Virus record (IMG/VR): IMGVR_UViG_2718218399_000013
DNA length: 24,737 nucleotides
Direction: 5' to 3' (one strand)
DNA from: a virus
Lineage: Duplodnaviria > Heunggongvirae > Uroviricota > Caudoviricetes
A program made the translations under genes and the position numbers. The notes under the pieces were generated by a model. That model made no database searches. It was not told where the DNA came from and saw only the letters and a program-made list of their open reading frames with translations. The stretch's first letter is position 1; the number at the start of each line of letters is the position of its first letter. Below, in pieces: positions 6,401 to 13,012 of this stretch.

Positions 6401-7153
6401 ATGACAATCCCAGAACAGAACAATAACCCGATCGTTGAAATTTCTATCCCTGTTTCGACGCAACAGGCGCTTGAGAAAGTGAATGCCACCAAATCTGCAT
6501 GGCTTGAAGCACGTCGTCAGCAAAAAGCGGCAGCGGATAATATTGCGACAATCCGCCAGCGCCGCGCTGAAATGGAAGCCACGACGAACGCCCTGAATGA
6601 GGAGTGGCGCACGCTATTTCGTGAAAGTCAGGGCGTAGTCTCAAAGGAAATGAAAAAACTGCGCACGGAAATTGCGCTGGGACGAGAAACGCTTGAGGAT
6701 TTTGATGAGCTGCTGGCGGCTCAGGAAAGCGAAAATGCACTTTTGCCGCAGGAGGCTGCGGAATTAGCCGGAAAGTATATCCACGCGCACGACACCCTTG
6801 TGGGTATTCGCGCAAAACAAATCTGGGAAGATTTTATGCAGTCGCATGGAAAAGCACTAATCCAGACACTAAGCCTGCTCAAATCAACAATGGGCAGGGA
6901 AGCCAGCGCAGTTGTCGGTGTGGTGCATTCAGTTAATGACCCGGACACACTGCTGAAAGATTTTATTCATAAACATATCACCAGACCGGCTCTGACTAAC
7001 GATGCGATGCCCGAACAGGACCCCGTGTTTAAACTGGCGGGAGTTGCCCCGGATTATGCGGCCCGTCTGGATTTCAGTAATAAACTCTCTCCAGCAGCTA
7101 TGCATAAAATGAAGGTTCGTCAGGAACGTGCTGAGAAGGAGAAAGCAGTATGA
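6401..7153 (+). CDS. first gene of the satellite late operon, 250 aa; Sid-like (capsid size determination) by position and size
   Basis: ORF with ATG start downstream of the TGT-N12-ACA dyad; charged, helix-rich composition; stop overlaps the next gene start (ATGA); assignment positional only. Confidence 0.55.
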   Translation: MTIPEQNNNPIVEISIPVSTQQALEKVNATKSAWLEARRQQKAAADNIATIRQRRAEMEATTNALNEEWRTLFRESQGVVSKEMKKLRTEIALGRETLEDFDELLAAQESENALLPQEAAELAGKYIHAHDTLVGIRAKQIWEDFMQSHGKALIQTLSLLKSTMGREASAVVGVVHSVNDPDTLLKDFIHKHITRPALTNDAMPEQDPVFKLAGVAPDYAARLDFSNKLSPAAMHKMKVRQERAEKEKAV

Positions 7154-7701
7154 TGGCCCGAGTCACTCCAGACCAAGCGCTTATCAGTTTTAGAAATGCC
7201 CGTATTCTGTGGGCTGGACATAGTGAGAGCCGAAAAGCCGTTGAACAACAGATAGAATCACTCCTCACTGCCATGGAAAAACCAGCAGATTATGCTCGAC
7301 AGCTCGAATTACAGCGGGAACATCTGGATGTGCTGAAATGGCAAATTAACTGTGCTGCGCGCGAATGCATTTACTCGCAGCATCAACTGATGGAGGCCTG
7401 CACAGAAGACGCTCTCAGCAATTTTATGCAGGCGAATGGAGCAGCCCTGACATCTGCACTGGCTCCGTTCCTGAAGGGGCGCGGAGGGGTTGACGTTGCG
7501 TCCCGTATATTACGCAATGCTCTGGTTCGCCAGCTGGCAATAACACCGCCTGAAATTGCCGGGGATTATCGTATGATTCTGGATGAATCCGGTGTGATGC
7601 CTGACCCCATGATGGTTCGTGATTGCCAGAGCTCTTACACCCCTGCACAACAACTGCGCTTTCAGCAACGTCTGGATTACATTAACGGCATGCAGGAGTA
7701 A
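7150..7701 (+). CDS. Psu-like protein, 183 aa
   Basis: Translationally coupled to the upstream gene; size and segments such as KWQINCAARECIYSQHQ and FMQANGAALTSALAPFLKG resemble my recollection of P4 Psu; not verified by alignment. Confidence 0.5.
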   Translation: MMARVTPDQALISFRNARILWAGHSESRKAVEQQIESLLTAMEKPADYARQLELQREHLDVLKWQINCAARECIYSQHQLMEACTEDALSNFMQANGAALTSALAPFLKGRGGVDVASRILRNALVRQLAITPPEIAGDYRMILDESGVMPDPMMVRDCQSSYTPAQQLRFQQRLDYINGMQE

Positions 7702-7706
7702 TATTA

Positions 7707-7979
7707 ATGGCACTTAAATGTCCCGAATGCGGTACGACGGCACACGCCAGAACCTCCGCCTATGAAGCACCATCGGTTAAACGCTCATGGTATCAGTGCC
7801 AGAATCTTGAATGTTCCTACACATTTACCGCACTGGAAAGTGTGGATACGATAATCATGAAGCCCCGGCGCAATGAACAGGAATCAGAGAAAGCACAAAT
7901 GCCGGAAAAACAACAGCAAACTCTCAATCGCTATGGCTCCGCGTCAAAGCTGTCAAGCCGTCAGCAAATTCCTGTCTGA
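7707..7979 (+). CDS. Ogr/Delta-family zinc-finger late transcriptional activator, 90 aa
   Basis: N-terminal CPECGTTAHARTS ... YQCQNLECSYTF matches the Ogr/Delta C-x2-C ... C-x4-C zinc finger; RBS aggag upstream of the ATG. Confidence 0.8.
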   Translation: MALKCPECGTTAHARTSAYEAPSVKRSWYQCQNLECSYTFTALESVDTIIMKPRRNEQESEKAQMPEKQQQTLNRYGSASKLSSRQQIPV

Positions 7980-8215: not shown

Positions 8216-8388
8216 GTTAGATTATAAAATATCAAACGCCGGTGAGATCCATTATTGTGGAACCACCCGAAGGAAGTGTAGAGGCGAAAGTACCCAAAAT
8301 AATTTTGCAAATTATTTAGAAATGAACTGAGCGCTCGAAACGAAATATAATTTCGAGCACCCCAATTAGCAGTTATATTTTTAATGTA

Positions 8389-8955
8389 TTAAACAGGATA
8401 AAAACCAGAGCTTCCATTCTTATTTAAGTTATGGATTTTATTTGCATCATTAATTTTTATTTGGAACGTCGGACCTTTATTCTCAAGAATTACAATCTGG
8501 AAATTATAGTCCCTTTTGATTAATGCGTGATAAAATGAATCACTGAGACTGACGCTATTAACATCCGATAGAGAACCCCCTCTATCTTTATCAAAGTGCG
8601 TCACTAATGGACTATCAAGCACAACAAATCCAATGAATGGATTCCCTTTTCTTGATAAAAATTCCGCAAAGCAAATGGTAAATATAGCATGCATTACTGC
8701 ACGGGTACCTTTACCAAACATTCCTCGGCGTTTCCCATTGATATTAAAGTCATATGTATCTTCGTCAAATCGCACTTTGTTATCTTTAGAATTTTCAAAA
8801 TTTATATCATTCAAAAAGTCTTGCATCGCTATTTCTATATCATACAAATCAGCTACTGTTAAGGAGTCAAAGTCCTCGGCGGAGTATTTAAGTTCGTCAA
8901 CATCATCTTCTTTATCTTGTAATGAAGATAGAATGCTATGTTTTGTGTGATCCAT
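8389..8955 (-). CDS. C-terminal ABC-ATPase head fragment (Walker B / D-loop region), 188 aa; third piece of an SMC/Rad50-like ATPase
   Basis: FGKGTRAVMHAIF (degenerate signature-like) about 20 aa before GFVVLDSPL (Walker-B-like); start ATG overlaps the upstream stop as TAATG; AT-rich. Confidence 0.5.
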   Translation of the reverse strand: MDHTKHSILSSLQDKEDDVDELKYSAEDFDSLTVADLYDIEIAMQDFLNDINFENSKDNKVRFDEDTYDFNINGKRRGMFGKGTRAVMHAIFTICFAEFLSRKGNPFIGFVVLDSPLVTHFDKDRGGSLSDVNSVSLSDSFYHALIKRDYNFQIVILENKGPTFQIKINDANKIHNLNKNGSSGFYPV

Positions 8956-9545
8956 TAAAAGATTGTCTTTATATTCATAAAGTGATTCAAGAGATGAATG
9001 TATTGTTTTATATTTTTATCTTCTAACGTCTTAAAATCACTTTTTTCTGATTGATAAATTTCATTAACATCATTTTTTCTTAACATAATTAATTCATGTT
9101 CGCGAACATTAGATCCGATTGATTCAATTAATCCTTTCAGCTGGCTTTTGATTTTCAATTTTTCTGCATTACACGACAAAAAACAATCATCATATGATAT
9201 TTCATTTTCTTTTTTTTGCGGTGTATTACAGAACTCACAATAAATATCTGCAAAATTATTTAAATAGAAATTCGCCTGTGATACAACATCTATTCTTTGT
9301 AGATCTATAAAGTATTGGTCTTTAAGAAGACTAAATCTTTCAATGAGTAATGATAAGTATTTTTCCCTGTCACTGATTGAATATAATTCATCACTTAACT
9401 CTTTTAATAATTGCTTCTTATCATCAAGTGCATCAACAATACCTTTCAATATATCTTTCGATGATTCAATATCTTGCTCTACTTTCTCAAGTTCTCTTGA
9501 AACAATGACTTGATCATATTCAGGATAAATTAATTGCGCTTTCAA
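8955..9545 (-). CDS. coiled-coil middle segment of an SMC/Rad50-like ATPase with a possible zinc-hook motif, 196 aa; no ATG start, in frame with the upstream ORF across a single TAA
   Basis: Heptad-rich charged sequence; Cys cluster YCEFCNTPQKK...DCFLSCN; track start is TTG, first internal Met is near the C-terminus; upstream ORF is in the same frame, separated only by TAA at 9576-9578. Confidence 0.45.
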   Translation of the reverse strand: MKAQLIYPEYDQVIVSRELEKVEQDIESSKDILKGIVDALDDKKQLLKELSDELYSISDREKYLSLLIERFSLLKDQYFIDLQRIDVVSQANFYLNNFADIYCEFCNTPQKKENEISYDDCFLSCNAEKLKIKSQLKGLIESIGSNVREHELIMLRKNDVNEIYQSEKSDFKTLEDKNIKQYIHLLNHFMNIKTIF

Positions 9546-9575
9546 TTCCTCATAAATATTTGCAATTTGATTTTT

Positions 9576-10208
9576 TTAAAAATATCTTGCTTTTTTATTT
9601 GGTTTTTCTGCTAAGGAGTTAGTATCATCTCTCTGAGTTAAAAGGAATTTAAATTCAGACTTTCTTTTTGTCTCCTCGCTAGGAATATCAGAAAGAATTA
9701 ACGACTTCTCAGTTAACACTCTTAATTCATCAATACAAAAAAATTCAAAAACATTATTAAGATTAAATTTATGAAGAGTATTACTTAAGTTTGTTCTTAC
9801 TTTAGCCTCTTTGAAATTCAACCTACCATAAAAGTATGATGAAAAACTCTTTTTAGACGAAGCACTTTTGGAAAAAACCATCAACAGATTAGCTTCACTA
9901 ACATTTTCAATGCTCGAATCATATAATCTGTAATGGGCGCTATCCTGAAGAGACCTCTCAATTGTCATTACCCTACCTTGAAAATTAAATTCCAGATAGG
10001 CTAAATCATAACCTTGAGCATGATCGATATCTTTATTTTTTAGTTTTTCACTCCCTAATAAATATCGAATCAAATAATATATGTATGTTTTTCCAGAGTC
10101 AGAACCACCATATAAAATAGTCAATTTAGAACCAAATTCAATTATAGCATCTAATTTATTGAATCCGGTTACCTTTATTTTTCTGAACGTAAAAAAATTG
10201 TCATTCAT
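9576..10208 (-). CDS. N-terminal ABC-ATPase head (Walker A) of an SMC/RecF/Rad50-like protein, about 210 aa before an in-frame TAA
   Basis: FTFRKIKVTGFNKLDAIIEFGSKLTILYGGSDSGKTYIYYLI is a typical ABC/SMC N-terminal P-loop; candidate ATG starts at 10208 or 10226 (the track uses TTG at 10235); ends at TAA 9576-9578 with the next ORF in frame. Confidence 0.6.
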   Translation of the reverse strand: MNDNFFTFRKIKVTGFNKLDAIIEFGSKLTILYGGSDSGKTYIYYLIRYLLGSEKLKNKDIDHAQGYDLAYLEFNFQGRVMTIERSLQDSAHYRLYDSSIENVSEANLLMVFSKSASSKKSFSSYFYGRLNFKEAKVRTNLSNTLHKFNLNNVFEFFCIDELRVLTEKSLILSDIPSEETKRKSEFKFLLTQRDDTNSLAEKPNKKARYF

Positions 10209-10659
10209 AATTAAATTCCATATCATATTTGCCAATTTTATTTTTTATAATTGATTGCAACTGCTCATCAGGAATATCACTATATAACTTAACCACCAAA
10301 TTTATATTATGCTCCATCTGCGCAACATATTCATTATGTAGAGAATTTGTAAATGCATATGTTTTTTCAGAAGCTTTATATACAAAACCACGATGTGTAT
10401 AAATTTTTGAGGCTAGTTCATAGCCTTGCAACAAAGCCAATGATTCTAAAACAATCTCTCGTTTTAGGGCTAACTGAGCATCTCTACGGGGTATTGGAGG
10501 ATGAAGACTAATCTCTTCAGGTAAAAAATCCTTAAGATTTACTAAAATAAAATCAAAACAAATAAGCCGTTCAAGGCTTAATGAAGAAGGATAAATAGCG
10601 ACGAGCACTTTCGCCATTCGACATGCCACTTCTAAACTTGAATTATAAATTCTAACCAT
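10201..10659 (-). CDS. hypothetical small protein, 152 aa from the ATG at 10659; candidate small subunit of the cargo system
   Basis: ATG overlaps the upstream stop (TAATG); its stop lies 5 nt after the downstream ATG at 10208; AT-rich; no recognisable motif. Confidence 0.5.
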   Translation of the reverse strand: MVRIYNSSLEVACRMAKVLVAIYPSSLSLERLICFDFILVNLKDFLPEEISLHPPIPRRDAQLALKREIVLESLALLQGYELASKIYTHRGFVYKASEKTYAFTNSLHNEYVAQMEHNINLVVKLYSDIPDEQLQSIIKNKIGKYDMEFNYE

Positions 10660-11276
10660 TATCTCACCGTCCAAATTACTTCACCATCATTAACCAAATG
10701 ATGGCATATTCCTTTTTTATCATTTGCTTCACATATTTTTGATAGTACTGAATGTGCAATTGGTGTCAGAACAGCCTGCTTCAAGACTGCATTACACCTA
10801 ATAAATGCATAATTATGGTCTTCATAAAAGACGGGTTCAATTGAAGATGAAATGTAACATTTCAATGCTTTGAATACATCATCTTTAAATACTTCGCGGA
10901 CAAAAACCTCAAGCGAAGATGCAAAATAAAAATCATTTCTACTATTATTAAAGTGTCGTCTGTATGGATCATCAAGCTCTAAGAAAGAACTATAAGTTTT
11001 ATTTCCATGCTCTGAATAGGCTTGAAGCAGTGCATTAACATATACAGACTCTTTTTTTGAATTGTATGTTGGAATTTCATTTGGAGGGATTCTCACGACA
11101 TACAGCTCGTTAAAGTACTTAAAATAAAGGTGTGTATTTGCAATATCATTTAAAATCAATGATAAGGGTAGAGAGTAAAAAATACTAAAATCAAAATCCT
11201 CAATATATTTTTTTATTTCATCATCTAATGGAATATCAATCTTTTTAGTTATTTTTTTGAAATTGCTGAATCCCAT
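10659..11276 (-). CDS. hypothetical protein, 205 aa; possibly the C-terminal domain of the upstream Mrr-like nuclease ORF
   Basis: ATG lies 28 nt inside the upstream ORF with no clear RBS; one extra A in the A7 run at the junction would fuse the two ORFs in frame. Confidence 0.45.
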   Translation of the reverse strand: MGFSNFKKITKKIDIPLDDEIKKYIEDFDFSIFYSLPLSLILNDIANTHLYFKYFNELYVVRIPPNEIPTYNSKKESVYVNALLQAYSEHGNKTYSSFLELDDPYRRHFNNSRNDFYFASSLEVFVREVFKDDVFKALKCYISSSIEPVFYEDHNYAFIRCNAVLKQAVLTPIAHSVLSKICEANDKKGICHHLVNDGEVIWTVR

Positions 11277-11665
11277 GAATCAAGGACTGCTTTTTTAAGC
11301 TCGTTTTTATTTTTCAATAAATTAGAAAATGTAGTAGATAAATCATAGGGTGCCACAAAAAAGTACTTCTGAGGGATGGGATAATCACCATTCAGAGTAA
11401 AATAGATAAGTTTTCCAAACTCAACTACAACATCAGAGAACCCTAAACTTTTTTTGTACAGTTTGCATTGATAATTATCCCAAGAATAACCTTCTACGTT
11501 AGGATCCGATTTATATCCAACAACGTCTCTACCTTTATCTCCAGCTCCTCCCAAACGTTCGCTCCACGGGTAATCATCTGATTTACAGACAATAAGCCAA
11601 TCATGGACAAATACCTCCCATTGTTCATCATCCCATGTCAATATTTCCGAAAGTGGTTGAGACAC
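11249..11665 (-). CDS. Mrr-like PD-(D/E)xK restriction-endonuclease-fold protein, 138 aa; first gene of the cargo operon
   Basis: GGAGDKGRDVVGY ... YQCKLYKK matches the Mrr catalytic-domain pattern (G-x-G-D-x-G-x-D ... Q-x-K); GTG start with aaggag RBS embedded in the 3' end of int (int stop 3 nt upstream). Confidence 0.6.
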   Translation of the reverse strand: MSQPLSEILTWDDEQWEVFVHDWLIVCKSDDYPWSERLGGAGDKGRDVVGYKSDPNVEGYSWDNYQCKLYKKSLGFSDVVVEFGKLIYFTLNGDYPIPQKYFFVAPYDLSTTFSNLLKNKNELKKAVLDSWDSAISKK

Positions 11666-11668
11666 AAA

Positions 11669-12850
11669 TTAACTCCTTTTTAGTCTTTCAAATATCAAAT
11701 TACTGTACCAGTCCATCATAGACTTCCTTCCACTAAAATATTGAGCATGGTTATAAGTCCCCCTAATAGAATTTTTATCTACATGAGCCAACTGGATTTC
11801 AATCCAAGCACTCTCAAAACCTTGCTCATGCAGGATTGTAGAAAGGGTATGACGAAAACCATGTCCAGTGACTTTTCCTCCATACCCAATACGCTTAATG
11901 GCTTGATTTATACTCGCTTCGCTCATTGGCCTATTCGGATCGTTCCGCCCTGGAAAAACATAACGATAGTTCCCTGTCATGATCTTGAGTTCATTGAGTA
12001 AATCTACCGCTTGAGATGATAAGGGCACAAGATGTGGCCTACGCATTTTCATCCTTTCAGCAGGAATTTCCCAAATAGCGTTATCCAGATCAAATTCTTG
12101 CCATAATGCCGCGCGTAATTCGATGGTTCTCACACCCGTAATCATCAGTAATTTCGTGGCTATCTGGACAAGCTTACTCCCGGAGTAACCCTCTAAGGCA
12201 CGTAGAAAATCAGGTATCTCATCAGCTTTTAGGAATGGGAAATGATTGGATTGGTGTACTTCGAGAGCGCTGGAGAGATCAGCCGCAGGATTGTACTCCG
12301 CCCTACCCGTTGCAATTGCGTAGCGAAACACTTCGGAGCAACGCTGCCGCACTTTGCGCATTTTCTCCAACGCACCACGTTTCTCAATTTTACGCAGAAC
12401 GTTCAGCAGCTCTAGCGGTTTAATCTCTCCCACAGGCCTTGTTCCGACATAAGGAAAAATGTCGTTCTTAAACGCTTCCATGATGTCTGATGCATATCCC
12501 GCCGACCATTTAGCAGATTTAAGTTGATGCCACTCTCTGGCTATCTTTTCGAAGGCGTTCTCTGACTCTGTTTGCATAGCTAGCTTTTGCTCTTTTCGAA
12601 CCTCACTAGGGTTCTTTCCTTCTGCCACAAGTTTTCGAGCTTCATCACGACGGGAACGAGCATCGGCAAGGGTGATCGTTGGGTAAACACCAAGCGAGAT
12701 CATTTTGGGTTTGCCGGCATAGCGATAGCGGAACCGCCAACTCTTGCTTCCATTAGGTTCTATAAGTAATGACAACCCTAGCCCATCTCCAAATGTATAG
12801 GCTTTAGCTTCAGGCTTAGCGCGGCGAATCTGCATATCGTTTAAAGGCAT
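11669..12850 (-). CDS. P4-family tyrosine integrase, 393 aa
   Basis: N-terminus MPLNDMQIRRAKPEAKAYTFGDGLGLSLLIEPNGSKSWRFRY typical of P4/CP4-type integrases; C-terminal GHGFRHT ... Y catalytic region; adjacent to a partial thrW copy; the track's 12901 start adds 17 Cys-rich residues. Confidence 0.85.
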   Translation of the reverse strand: MPLNDMQIRRAKPEAKAYTFGDGLGLSLLIEPNGSKSWRFRYRYAGKPKMISLGVYPTITLADARSRRDEARKLVAEGKNPSEVRKEQKLAMQTESENAFEKIAREWHQLKSAKWSAGYASDIMEAFKNDIFPYVGTRPVGEIKPLELLNVLRKIEKRGALEKMRKVRQRCSEVFRYAIATGRAEYNPAADLSSALEVHQSNHFPFLKADEIPDFLRALEGYSGSKLVQIATKLLMITGVRTIELRAALWQEFDLDNAIWEIPAERMKMRRPHLVPLSSQAVDLLNELKIMTGNYRYVFPGRNDPNRPMSEASINQAIKRIGYGGKVTGHGFRHTLSTILHEQGFESAWIEIQLAHVDKNSIRGTYNHAQYFSGRKSMMDWYSNLIFERLKRS

Positions 12851-13012
12851 GTGTATAGGAATCCAGACCGAACAGGAACATATACACAATCCTATACACA
12901 TTCAGTACCGGATTCTACTGGATGGTTACGGACTACTATGGACTTAAAAGAATAAAAAATGTTATAAATCAGAGATTTTATGGACTAATACGGACGTTTG
13001 AGGAAGTTGAGA

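What the first reader, a model, noticed from the sequence alone, without database searches (positions are those of the whole stretch)
8950..8962. Coiled-coil ORF and C-terminal ATPase-head ORF joined by TAATG next to a T4 run
The stop of the 196-aa ORF overlaps the ATG of the 188-aa Walker-B ORF (TAATG), which could be genuine translational coupling of a split ATPase. However, one extra T in the adjacent T4 run would fuse the two in frame. Together with the other two junctions, all three breaks in the ATPase/nuclease genes fall at A/T homopolymers.
Basis: seen in the sequence. Interest (0 to 1): 0.45.

Follow-up and report, generated by a model that had tools for sequence, protein, structure and literature searches.

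The report
Decayed Lamassu defence ATPase pseudogene junction
The flagged stop/start overlap is a by-product of an old one-base deletion about 57 bases upstream, in a phage-defence (Lamassu) ATPase gene that has decayed into a pseudogene in the E. coli O157:H7 lineage; it is not a designed coupling of two genes and not a sequencing error.

Summary
The sequence facts hold. On the minus strand a 196-aa ORF stops at TAA (8955-8957), overlapping the ATG (8953-8955) of a 188-aa Walker-B ORF, next to TTTT. One extra T would fuse them.

The window is E. coli O157:H7 prophage Sp2, a P4-like satellite. Its psu-int defence hotspot carries a short Lamassu (ABC-3C) operon, LmuA-LmuC-LmuB. Intact relatives in Proteus, Pantoea and six other genera encode LmuB as one 594-612 aa protein.

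The string AATCTTTTAATGGAT occurs verbatim inside the intact Pantoea-type genes, where it reads N-L-L-M-D. So the T4 run and the TAATG are unmutated ancestral sequence, and the ATG is internal Met419.

The real lesion is loss of one A from an A6 run (now A5, 9013-9017). It leaves a 19-residue out-of-frame tail, and 20 ancestral residues are encoded by no ORF. The upstream break is a TTA→TAA nonsense change (9577), not a frameshift. LmuA carries a −1 at an A-run (11252-11258).

The two frameshifts are shared with O55:H7. The nonsense change is specific to the main O157:H7 clade. All three are fixed in about 300 complete genomes. RefSeq Sakai already annotates the gene as a pseudogene. This is ordinary gene decay.

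The parts
8389..10208 (-). LmuB (SMC/Rad50-like ABC ATPase of a short Lamassu system), a pseudogene of 1820 nt against 1821 nt when intact. It is broken into ORFs of 210, 196 and 188 aa.
   Evidence: The conceptual fusion aligns without gaps to 606-aa intact proteins at 86% (Proteus) and 73% (Pantoea) identity. PADLOC LmuB E = 1e-115 to 1e-117 over the full length. RefSeq Sakai annotates ECs_0293 as an AAA-ATPase pseudogene over exactly this span. The model of the intact homolog best matches solved LmuB chains 9uxh, 9hqu and 9nyg.
8953..8957 (-). The flagged TAATG. The TAA (8955-8957) is the first stop met in the shifted frame. The ATG (8953-8955) is the ancestral internal Met419.
   Evidence: AATCTTTTAATGGAT is identical in the intact genes of L008, L009 and L010, where it reads N L L M D. 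TAATG is not enriched in the window.
8957..8960 (-). It is unmutated ancestral sequence (codons CTT TTA).
   Evidence: DNA alignment with intact genes.
9013..9017 (-). The true frameshift site. This A5 run was A6 (codons 398-399, AAA AAA) in the ancestor, and one A has been lost.
   Evidence: The Proteus gene has GGT AAAAAA TAT where the window has GAT AAAAA TAT. The match to homologs switches from the 196-aa frame to the 188-aa frame exactly here. The deletion is shared by O157:H7, LSU61 and both O55:H7 strains. The stretch is identical in 306 of 308 records.
8958..9014 (-). A 19-codon out-of-frame tail of the 196-aa ORF (NIKQYIHLLNHFMNIKTIF). The same DNA in the ancestral frame encoded residues 399-418 (KYKTIHSSLESLYEYKDNLL), which no ORF now encodes.
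   Evidence: Three-frame translation compared with alignment A1.
9576..9578 (-). In-frame TAA at codon 211, a nonsense mutation TTA→TAA (T→A at 9577) that turns T6A6 into T5A7.
   Evidence: The 219-aa and 196-aa ORFs are in the same frame. Leu is invariant here in homologs. LSU61, O55:H7 DEC5B and CB9615, Proteus and the Pantoea-type genes all have T. 294 of 308 records are identical to the window over this stretch.
10086..10109 (-). Walker A motif GGSDSGKT (residues 34-41, with K40).
   Evidence: Invariant G34, S36, G39 and K40 in alignment A2. It fits Gx4GK[S/T] as defined for LmuB (PMC12663957).
9228..9239 (-). CxxC (C324-E-F-C327), a zinc-hook-type motif at the coiled-coil apex.
   Evidence: C324 and C327 are invariant in 34 sequences. 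They lie in the non-helical apex 318-338 between helices 233-317 and 339-439.
8611..8628 (-). Walker B motif F-V-V-L-D-S (residues 528-533), with Ser instead of Glu after the Asp.
   Evidence: D532, S533 and P534 are invariant. This matches hhhhD[Q/S/T/E] of short Lamassu (PMC12663957).
10201..10659 (-). LmuC (ABC-3C middle component 2), 152 aa, intact.
   Evidence: Pfam MC2 E = 6e-30, above its cut-off. PADLOC LmuC E = 5e-35 on the ortholog. It has the same length and the same overlaps as in intact loci.
10657..10661 (-). The genuine LmuA-stop/LmuC-start overlap. It is also TAATG, and it serves as an internal control for real coupling.
   Evidence: The 1-nt overlap is conserved in the intact loci L007, L009 and L010.
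10659..11665 (-). LmuA effector pseudogene (1007 nt against 1008 nt when intact). It is split into a 138-aa N-terminal putative nuclease ORF and a 205-aa ORF carrying CTD6.
   Evidence: Intact orthologs are 335 aa. Pfam CTD6 E = 8e-30. PADLOC LmuA E = 6e-85 on the ortholog.
11252..11258 (-). The LmuA frameshift site. This is an A7 run where intact genes have 8 nt (AAAGAAAA or CAATAAAA), so one base has been lost.
   Evidence: Identical in 308 of 308 records. Shared with O55:H7.
11669..12901 (-). P4-type tyrosine integrase, one border of the satellite's defence hotspot.
   Evidence: Pfam Arm-DNA-bind_3, Phage_int_M and Phage_integrase. Annotated intS in Sakai.
6401..7979 (+). P4 sid, psu and delta (ogr/Delta) genes, the other border of the hotspot.
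   Evidence: Annotation of Sakai and EDL933. The same neighbours flank the intact Lamassu in L008 and L009.

Best explanation
**What it is.** The locus is a short (type II, LmuA-LmuC-LmuB) Lamassu / ABC-3C anti-phage system. It is carried as cargo in the psu-int hotspot of the P4-like satellite prophage Sp2 of E. coli O157:H7, and it is dead.

**The three lesions.**
1. A −1 in an A-run of the effector gene lmuA (11252-11258). It separates the N-terminal putative nuclease from its C-terminal CTD6 domain.
2. A −1 in an A6 run of lmuB (now A5, 9013-9017).
3. A later TTA→TAA nonsense mutation at lmuB codon 211 (9577).

**How the flagged junction arises.** The TAATG is a passive consequence of lesion 2. 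After the deletion the ribosome reads 19 wrong codons and meets the first out-of-frame stop. That stop happens to straddle the ancestral codons TTA-ATG (Leu418-Met419). Met419 is also the first start codon available in the correct frame, so an ORF finder calls a 188-aa 'gene' that abuts the 196-aa one.

**Shown:** the single-gene ancestral state, the position and nature of each lesion, their order (both frameshifts predate the O55:H7/O157:H7 split and the nonsense change is later), and their fixation in the lineage.

**Inferred:** loss of function.
- LmuB needs its N- and C-terminal head halves joined through one antiparallel coiled coil with a zinc hook. Here 20 residues of the descending helix are lost.
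- LmuA needs its C-terminal domain on the same chain as the nuclease, both for sequestration and for activating tetramerisation.
For: **Identity of the system**
- Pfam MC2 and CTD6 score above their cut-offs.
- PADLOC gives LmuA 6e-85, LmuC 5e-35 and LmuB 2e-115 on the intact orthologs.
- The model of the intact homolog has pLDDT 85.8. Its best PDB matches are solved LmuB chains, then Rad50.
- The motifs fit the published definition of short Lamassu (PMC12663957).

**Single-gene ancestral state**
- 26 full-length homologs of 594-612 aa come from Proteus, Pantoea, Salmonella, Serratia, Klebsiella, Citrobacter, Yersinia and Aeromonas.
- The alignment to the 606-aa homologs has no gaps.
- Intact loci have the architecture 335 + 152 + 606 aa. 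In the Pantoea-type loci the system sits in the same P4 slot.

**Lesion mapping**
-.
- The T4 + TAATG string is identical in intact genes.

**Fixation**
- 306 of 308, 294 of 308 and 308 of 308 records are identical over the three lesion sites.

**Continuing decay is tolerated**
- IS1203 sits inside the N-terminal fragment in three strains.
- Other strains carry extra homopolymer indels: LSU61, DEC5B, CB9615, OkiPb01699 and AR-0429.
- Of 5 O157-specific substitutions, 3 are non-synonymous, 1 is nonsense and 1 is synonymous.

**Other support**
- RefSeq Sakai annotates the span as one pseudogene.
- Sp2 neither excises, replicates nor packages in Sakai, and its P2-like helper is defective (PMC2669165).
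- For the mechanism that requires intact chains, see 10.1101/2025.03.14.643221.
Against: - No expression or activity data were examined. Loss of function is inferred from architecture, not measured.
- LmuC is still intact, and the fragment ORFs remain open and long. Residual or altered activity of the pieces cannot be formally excluded.
- PGAP annotates the three ATPase pieces as ordinary CDSs in most O157 genomes.
- The sample of substitutions (5) is too small for a real test of selection.
- The ancestral E. coli sequence at the LmuA lesion is not known. It could have been A8 or AAAGAAAA, so 'homopolymer slippage' there is an inference.
Confidence: 0.93

Rival explanations
1. A genuine split ATPase. 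The coiled-coil ORF and the C-terminal head ORF are separate, translationally coupled genes (termination-reinitiation at TAATG), and their products reassemble into a working LmuB.
For: The stop/start overlap is real. The same operon does use a genuine TAATG overlap between lmuA and lmuC. The arrangement is identical in 306 of 308 complete genomes. PGAP calls the pieces as CDSs.
Against: - All those genomes are one clone, at least 99% identical.
- Every relative outside it has one ORF.
- The ATG is an internal Met, conserved only in the two closest homologs and Ser in the rest.
- There is no Shine-Dalgarno sequence upstream.
- The 196-aa product ends in 19 out-of-frame residues, and 20 ancestral residues of the descending coiled-coil helix are missing.
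- The same gene has an upstream nonsense codon, and the effector gene is also frameshifted.
Confidence: 0.03
2. A sequencing or assembly error in a homopolymer. The gene is really intact in the organism, with one base miscalled in the T4 run or another run.
For: The breaks lie at or next to A/T runs, which are classic sites of indel errors. A few long-read assemblies do show extra one-off homopolymer indels in this locus.
Against: - The same A5 and A7 lengths and the same TAA are present in about 300 independently sequenced complete genomes made on different platforms. These include the Sanger-era Sakai and EDL933 genomes.
- The T4 run is unchanged relative to intact genes.
- One lesion is a substitution, not an indel.
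Confidence: 0.01
3. A regulated bypass. Phase variation, transcriptional slippage or programmed ribosomal frameshifting at the A/T runs occasionally restores full-length LmuA and LmuB, giving a stochastic ON/OFF defence.
For: Two of the three lesions are ±1 events at A-runs. O55:H7 DEC5B and O157:H7 LSU61, which both lack the nonsense codon, carry independent +A insertions in nearby A6 runs (9079 and 9047) that restore the downstream frame arithmetically.
Against: - Runs of 5-7 A are short for efficient slippage (established knowledge; appreciable slippage needs about 8-9 or more).
- There is no tract-length polymorphism at the lesion sites in 306-308 of 308 genomes.
- The TAA at codon 211 cannot be bypassed by slippage.
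- The two +A insertions create immediate TGA stops, and the annotated CDSs end there.
- Intact relatives need no frameshift.
Confidence: 0.02

Closest known systems
Short (type II) Lamassu LmuA-LmuC-LmuB, e.g. Salmonella enterica LmuACB (PDB 9hqu/9hqx) and the systems of PMC12663957; equivalent to the ABC-3C systems with middle component 2 and CTD6
   Same: - Gene order and overlaps match.
- LmuB is ~600 aa, with Walker A Gx4GKT (K40), Walker B hhhhDS, and a coiled coil with a CxxC apex.
- LmuC matches MC2.
- LmuA has a C-terminal CTD6 domain behind a variable N-terminal effector domain.
- The fold of the intact homolog best matches solved LmuB chains.
   Different: - Sequence identity to solved LmuB chains is only ~14%, and no PDB hit is found by sequence.
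- In this window the system is not intact: lmuA has a −1 frameshift, and lmuB has a nonsense codon plus a −1 frameshift.
- The effector's N-terminal domain is only weakly Mrr-like (E = 0.2).
Intact orthologous operons in Proteus mirabilis (L006/L007) and in Pantoea alhagi and related contigs (L008-L010)
   Same: - They are 89% and 79% nucleotide identical over the whole operon.
- The Pantoea-type copies sit in the same P4-like slot (int - Lamassu - delta/psu/sid), next to proBA.
- The T4 + TAATG string is identical in the Pantoea-type copies.
   Different: They have one 606-aa LmuB. The gene caller reports a 335-aa LmuA in L007, L009 and L010 but a shorter CDS (145 or 201 aa) in L006 and L008, although my translation of the same span reads through without a stop in all of them. 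The window has three inactivating lesions.
Defence cargo of the P4-like satellite psu-int hotspot (Rousset et al. 2022, PMC9122126; PMC13586616)
   Same: The position between psu/delta and int of a P4-like element, and the AT-rich (31% GC) cargo between ~45% GC core genes.
   Different: [quoted passage not shown] Here a recognisable system has decayed in place, inside a satellite that no longer excises or replicates.
Rad50 / SbcC (CxxC-type SMC-like ABC ATPases)
   Same: A bipartite ABC head joined by an antiparallel coiled coil with a CxxC hook. This architecture is the reason a break in the coiled coil separates Walker A from Walker B.
   Different: The coiled coil is much shorter, the Walker B motif is divergent (D-S), and the partner proteins are LmuA and LmuC rather than Mre11 or SbcD.

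Membership tests
Short Lamassu (LmuACB) / ABC-3C | LmuB: an SMC/Rad50-like ABC ATPase of ~600 aa with Walker A Gx4GK[S/T] | tested here: met
   GGSDSGKT at residues 34-41 is invariant. PADLOC LmuB 2e-115, full length, on the ortholog. Homologs are 594-612 aa.
Short Lamassu (LmuACB) / ABC-3C | Divergent Walker B hhhhD[Q/S/T/E] | tested here: met
   F-V-V-L-D-S, with D532, S533 and P534 invariant. The definition comes from PMC12663957.
Short Lamassu (LmuACB) / ABC-3C | Antiparallel coiled coil with a CxxC zinc-hook-type apex (0-2 copies allowed) | tested here: met
   Helices 233-317 and 339-439 flank an apex that holds the invariant C324 and C327.
Short Lamassu (LmuACB) / ABC-3C | Fold similarity to experimentally solved LmuB | tested here: met
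   The top Foldseek PDB hits are 9uxh_F, 9hqu, 9hqx, 9ux7 and 9nyg (E = 2e-15 to 6e-12), ahead of Rad50. TM-scores of ~0.4 are low because the relative orientation of coiled coil and head differs.
Short Lamassu (LmuACB) / ABC-3C | LmuC / middle component encoded between lmuA and lmuB | tested here: met
   Pfam MC2 104.5 bits against a cut-off of 26.9. PADLOC LmuC 5e-35.
Short Lamassu (LmuACB) / ABC-3C | LmuA with the conserved C-terminal (oligomerisation/sequestration) domain | tested here: met
   Pfam CTD6 104.4 bits against a cut-off of 26.4 on the 205-aa ORF. PADLOC LmuA 6e-85 on the intact 335-aa ortholog.
Short Lamassu (LmuACB) / ABC-3C | LmuA N-terminal effector domain is a nuclease | tested here: inconclusive
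   There is only a sub-threshold Mrr_cat hit (E = 0.2, 12 bits against a cut-off of 21). A D...QxK-like motif is visible by eye (GDKGRD...YQCK), but that is inference.
Short Lamassu (LmuACB) / ABC-3C | All three genes intact (a functional member) | tested here: not met
   lmuA has a −1, and lmuB has a TAA at codon 211 plus a −1 at codons 398-399. The locus is a relic of a member, not a working member.
Short Lamassu (LmuACB) / ABC-3C | Confers anti-phage defence / abortive infection | not testable with these tools
   This needs phage challenge of the native locus against a repaired one.
Naturally split, translationally coupled two-chain ATPase | The split and its junction are conserved in independent lineages | tested here: not met
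   The split occurs only in the O55:H7/O157:H7 clone. Eight other genera have a single ORF.
Naturally split, translationally coupled two-chain ATPase | The pieces together contain the complete ancestral sequence | tested here: not met
   Residues 399-418 are encoded by no ORF, and 19 out-of-frame residues are appended to the middle piece.
Phase-variable / programmed-frameshift gene | A long slippery tract with length polymorphism among isolates | tested here: not met
   The tracts are A5 and A7. They are identical in 306 of 308 and 308 of 308 genomes.
P4-like satellite psu-int defence hotspot cargo | Located between psu/delta and the P4-type integrase of a P4-like element | tested here: met
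   Sakai annotation 'prophage Sp2, P4-like phage', with sid, psu and delta on one side and intS on the other. The hotspot is defined in PMC9122126.

The most novel reading that the evidence does not exclude
The most novel reading not excluded is that the relic is not inert.
- The intact LmuC and the still-open fragments (a free N-LmuA nuclease domain, a free CTD6 domain and LmuB head halves) might have a residual or new role.
- One example would be a decoy that interferes with incoming Lamassu-bearing elements.
- More modestly, the locus may be a rare documented case of in-place decay of a recognisable defence system in a P4-like satellite. That would be an exception to the reported 'swap before decay' rule, explained by the satellite having lost its mobility and its helper.
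Probability: 0.06. Interest if true: 0.35.

Novelty: already known. Interest (0 to 1): 0.12.

Why it matters
The practical value is mainly for annotation.
- Most O157:H7 genomes carry three 'hypothetical protein / AAA family ATPase' CDSs and two effector CDSs that should be two pseudogenes of a Lamassu system.
- Defence-system predictors should not count this system as active in O157:H7.

The case also illustrates a general trap. A stop/start overlap next to a short homopolymer looks like either coupling or a local frameshift, when the real lesion can lie tens of bases upstream. Only comparison with intact relatives shows this.

Biologically, it dates the stepwise decay of a satellite-borne defence system. 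The frameshifts predate the O55:H7/O157:H7 split and the nonsense change is later. It is also one of the apparently rare recognisable defence pseudogenes in P4-like satellites.

Tried and rejected
- **NCBIfam scan.** It gave nothing for any of the six fragment ORFs.
- **PDB sequence searches.** The intact homolog and a 10-sequence profile gave no meaningful hit, only weak SMC/Rad50 N-terminal matches. The fold search was needed instead.
- **Short-query search across the nonsense site.** It returned 'no match' because of the low-complexity filter. I repeated it with a shifted 99-nt query.
- **FRIK944 lead.** Rousset et al. 2022 synthesised a P4-hotspot system from O157:H7 FRIK944 that showed no activity. 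I checked whether it was this locus. It was not. It is a two-gene cytidine-deaminase system from another P4-like element in that strain.
- **Diverged intact copy in other E. coli lineages.** blastn 'distant' found only the same ≥99% clone.
- **tblastn against phage records.** It gave only remote hits (21-37% identity).
- **LSU61 and DEC5B +A insertions as compensatory frame restorations.** Rejected, because each creates an immediate TGA.
- **Literature search for O157 + Lamassu + Sp2.** I found no paper describing this relic.
Full report
**1. The observation**

Read on the minus strand, the region is ...AAT ATA AAG ACA ATC TTT TAATG GAT CAC....
- The 196-aa ORF (8955-9545) ends at TAA 8957-8955.
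- The 188-aa ORF (8389-8955) begins at ATG 8955-8953.
- The T4 run is 8957-8960, and its last T is the first base of the stop.
- One extra T would give ATC TTT TTA ATG GAT, an in-frame fusion.

The motif itself is unremarkable. TAATG occurs 85 times in the window against 73 ± 8 in shuffles, and this locus is only 31% G+C.

**2. What the locus is**

- The window is E. coli O157:H7. Bases 8300-11700 are 100% identical to Sakai, EDL933 and about 300 other complete genomes.
- In Sakai the region is annotated 'prophage Sp2, P4-like phage'. The sid, psu and delta genes lie on one side and intS on the other.
- That is the psu-int defence hotspot of P4-like satellites (PMC9122126).
- Pfam identifies the 157-aa ORF as ABC-3C middle component 2 and the 205-aa ORF as ABC-3C CTD6, both far above their cut-offs. 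It gives AAA_23/SMC_N hits on the 219-aa ORF.
- PADLOC models call the intact orthologs LmuA (6e-85), LmuC (5e-35) and LmuB (2e-115, full length).

The system is therefore a Lamassu system of the LmuA-LmuC-LmuB type.

**3. The ancestral state is one gene**

- I joined the three ATPase ORFs conceptually (606 aa) and searched with the result. It returned 26 full-length homologs of 594-612 aa from Proteus, Pantoea, Salmonella, Serratia, Klebsiella, Citrobacter, Yersinia and Aeromonas.
- The two closest, at 86% and 73% identity, are exactly 606 aa and align without a single gap.
- Their loci encode LmuC at 152 aa and LmuB at 606 aa, with the same gene overlaps. LmuA is called at 335 aa in L007, L009 and L010, and my translation of the same span reads through without a stop in L006 and L008 as well.
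- The Pantoea-type copies sit in the same int / delta-psu-sid slot of a P4-like element, next to proBA.

**4. Where the breaks really are**

DNA alignments with the intact genes and a three-frame translation show three lesions.

- *(a) The 219/196 junction is not a frameshift.* The two ORFs are in the same frame, separated by a single TAA (9576-9578). Every homolog has Leu211 there. A T→A change at 9577 turned TTA into TAA, and T6A6 into T5A7.
- *(b) The 196/188 junction does not arise in the T4 run.* The last 19 residues of the 196-aa ORF (NIKQYIHLLNHFMNIKTIF) match nothing. The other frame reads KYKTIHSSLESLYEYKDNLL-MDHTKH, against KKYKKIHLLLESLYEYKDNLLMDYTKH in Proteus. The frames switch at GAT AAAAA TAT (A5 = 9013-9017), where the Proteus gene has GGT AAAAAA TAT. 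One A has been lost from codons 398-399.
- *The flagged string is ancestral.* AATCTTTTAATGGAT is identical in the intact Pantoea-type genes, where it encodes N-L-L-M-D. The T4 run and the TAATG are untouched ancestral sequence. The ATG is Met419. The TAA is simply the first stop in the shifted frame, and it happens to straddle the codons TTA-ATG. Residues 399-418 are now encoded by no ORF.
- *(c) The effector gene lmuA has lost one base at an A-run.* The window has A7 at 11252-11258, against 8 nt in the intact genes. This separates a 138-aa N-terminal domain from the CTD6 domain.

For comparison, the genuine lmuA/lmuC junction in both intact and broken loci is itself a TAATG overlap (10657-10661). 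The genuine lmuC/lmuB junction is ATGAATGA (10201-10208). The artefactual junction therefore mimics a real feature of the operon.

**5. Not an error, and when it happened**

- Short queries, designed so that one difference drops identity below 99%, gave these counts of identical records: 306 of 308 across the A5 run plus TAATG, 308 of 308 across the lmuA lesion, and 294 of 308 across the TAA.
- O55:H7 strains DEC5B and CB9615 and the early-branching O157:H7 strain LSU61 share both frameshifts but keep TTA at codon 211.
- So the frameshifts predate the O55:H7/O157:H7 split, or came in with the element. The nonsense mutation arose later, in the main O157:H7 clade.
- Decay continues. IS1203 sits in the N-terminal fragment in three strains, and several strains have further one-off homopolymer indels. 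Some of those may be assembly errors.
- Of the five substitutions specific to the O157 branch, one is the nonsense change, three are non-synonymous and one is synonymous. That fits relaxed constraint, but the sample is far too small to prove it.
- RefSeq's Sakai record already annotates the whole 1820-nt span as one AAA-ATPase pseudogene. PGAP calls three CDSs in most other genomes.

**6. Why the pieces should not work (inference)**

- A model of the 606-aa Proteus protein has the same numbering as the fusion, and its mean pLDDT is 85.8. It shows an N-terminal head (~1-200), an ascending helix (233-317), an apex (318-338) carrying the invariant C324-x-x-C327, a descending helix (339-439) and a C-terminal head (~450-606).
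- Its best PDB matches are solved LmuB chains (9uxh, 9hqu, 9hqx, 9nyg), followed by Rad50.
- Walker A (GGSDSGKT, with K40) and Walker B (VVLDS) fit the published definition of short Lamassu (PMC12663957).
- The nonsense codon cuts the chain just after the N-terminal head.
- The frameshift removes 20 residues from the descending coiled-coil helix and separates Walker A from Walker B.
- In solved Lamassu complexes, an LmuB dimer folded through its coiled coils and zinc hook, together with LmuC, sequesters the C-terminal domain of LmuA. On release, that domain tetramerises to activate the N-terminal nuclease (10.1101/2025.03.14.643221). Here the lmuA frameshift puts the effector domain and the CTD on different polypeptides.
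- No Shine-Dalgarno sequence precedes Met419.

**7. Rivals**

- *Genuine translational coupling.* This fails because the split is confined to one clone and the pieces are incomplete.
- *Sequencing error.* This fails because about 300 independent genomes agree and because the T4 run is unchanged relative to intact genes.
- *Phase variation or programmed frameshifting.* This fails because the tracts are short and invariant, and because slippage cannot bypass a TAA.

**8. Context**

- Sp2 does not circularise, replicate or package in Sakai, and its P2-like helper Sp13 is itself defective (PMC2669165).
- A 2026 survey reports that recognisable defence pseudogenes are rare in P4-like satellites, because systems are swapped before they decay (PMC13586616).
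- An immobilised satellite that can no longer exchange cargo is a plausible setting for the exception seen here. This is an inference.

**9. Verdict**

The sequence observation is real. The proposed coupling is not. The proposed frameshift is right in kind but misplaced by about 57 nt. The locus is a known kind of system (Lamassu) in a known kind of place (the P4 hotspot), in a known state (an annotated pseudogene). Interest is low.

Noticed in passing
window 9576-9578 (−): The junction between the 219-aa and 196-aa ORFs is an in-frame TAA nonsense codon (T→A at 9577, TTA→TAA), not a frameshift. It is confined to the main O157:H7 clade. LSU61 and O55:H7 strains DEC5B and CB9615 keep TTA.
   Followed up: yes
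window 11252-11258 (−): The effector gene lmuA is also a pseudogene, with a −1 at an A7 run where intact orthologs have 8 nt. This splits the putative nuclease domain from the CTD6 domain. The lesion is identical in 308 of 308 E. coli records and is shared with O55:H7.
   Followed up: yes
L003 (LSU61), L011 (DEC5B), L012 (CB9615), L004 (OkiPb01699), L005 (AR-0429); window equivalents 9047, 9079, 9744/9046, 10197, 9743/9217: Individual strains carry additional, independent single-base indels in other A/T runs of lmuB. Two of them (+A at 9047 in LSU61, +A at 9079 in DEC5B) lie just upstream of the shared −1 and create immediate TGA stops. I did not resolve whether these are real mutations or long-read homopolymer errors.
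   Followed up: partly
L013 1827-3040 (strain M1300706002; also H2 and H3): An IS1203 (IS3-family) element is inserted inside the N-terminal ATPase fragment in three O157:H7 strains, truncating it to 159 aa. This is further decay of the relic.
   Followed up: partly
window 8611-8628 (−); alignment A2: The residue after the Walker B aspartate is an invariant Ser (D532-S533-P534) in all 34 homologs, instead of the catalytic Glu. This agrees with the 'hhhhD[Q/S/T/E]' reported for short Lamassu and implies slow ATP hydrolysis in the intact proteins.
   Followed up: partly
window 10657-10661 and 10201-10208 (−): The genuine operon junctions are overlaps conserved in intact loci: lmuA/lmuC is TAATG and lmuC/lmuB is ATGAATGA. 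The first is the same pentamer as the artefactual junction that was flagged.
   Followed up: yes
window 8389-11665 versus its flanks: The Lamassu cargo is 30.9% G+C, against 44.8% for the integrase gene and 46.3% for the first 8 kb of the window. This is typical of horizontally exchanged hotspot cargo.
   Followed up: partly
window 8333-8358 (−): An 8-bp inverted repeat (GCTCGAAA ... TTTCGAGC, 10-nt loop) lies about 30 nt downstream of the lmuB stop. It may be a terminator hairpin, but it has no clear T-run. Seen by eye only.
   Followed up: no
window 23294-23369 (−) and 23484-24737 (−): tRNA-Thr(CGT) (thrW) lies next to the 417-aa ORF that runs to the end of the window. That ORF is probably proA. 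I did not scan it, but its length and position match the Aldedh-family proA gene next to the integrase in L008. By the Sakai annotation the window holds Sp2 and the Sp1 remnant in tandem. In Pantoea alhagi (L008) the intact Lamassu-bearing P4-like element sits directly next to proBA.
   Followed up: partly
summary; protein P0027: Two oddities were left unexamined. One of the 311 E. coli matches lies on a record labelled as a plasmid, and one genome has two copies. P0027 (344 aa, from one read-set assembly) carries an MC2 domain and is 96% identical to the LmuB N-terminus, which looks like an LmuC-LmuB read-through call in yet another variant.
   Followed up: no
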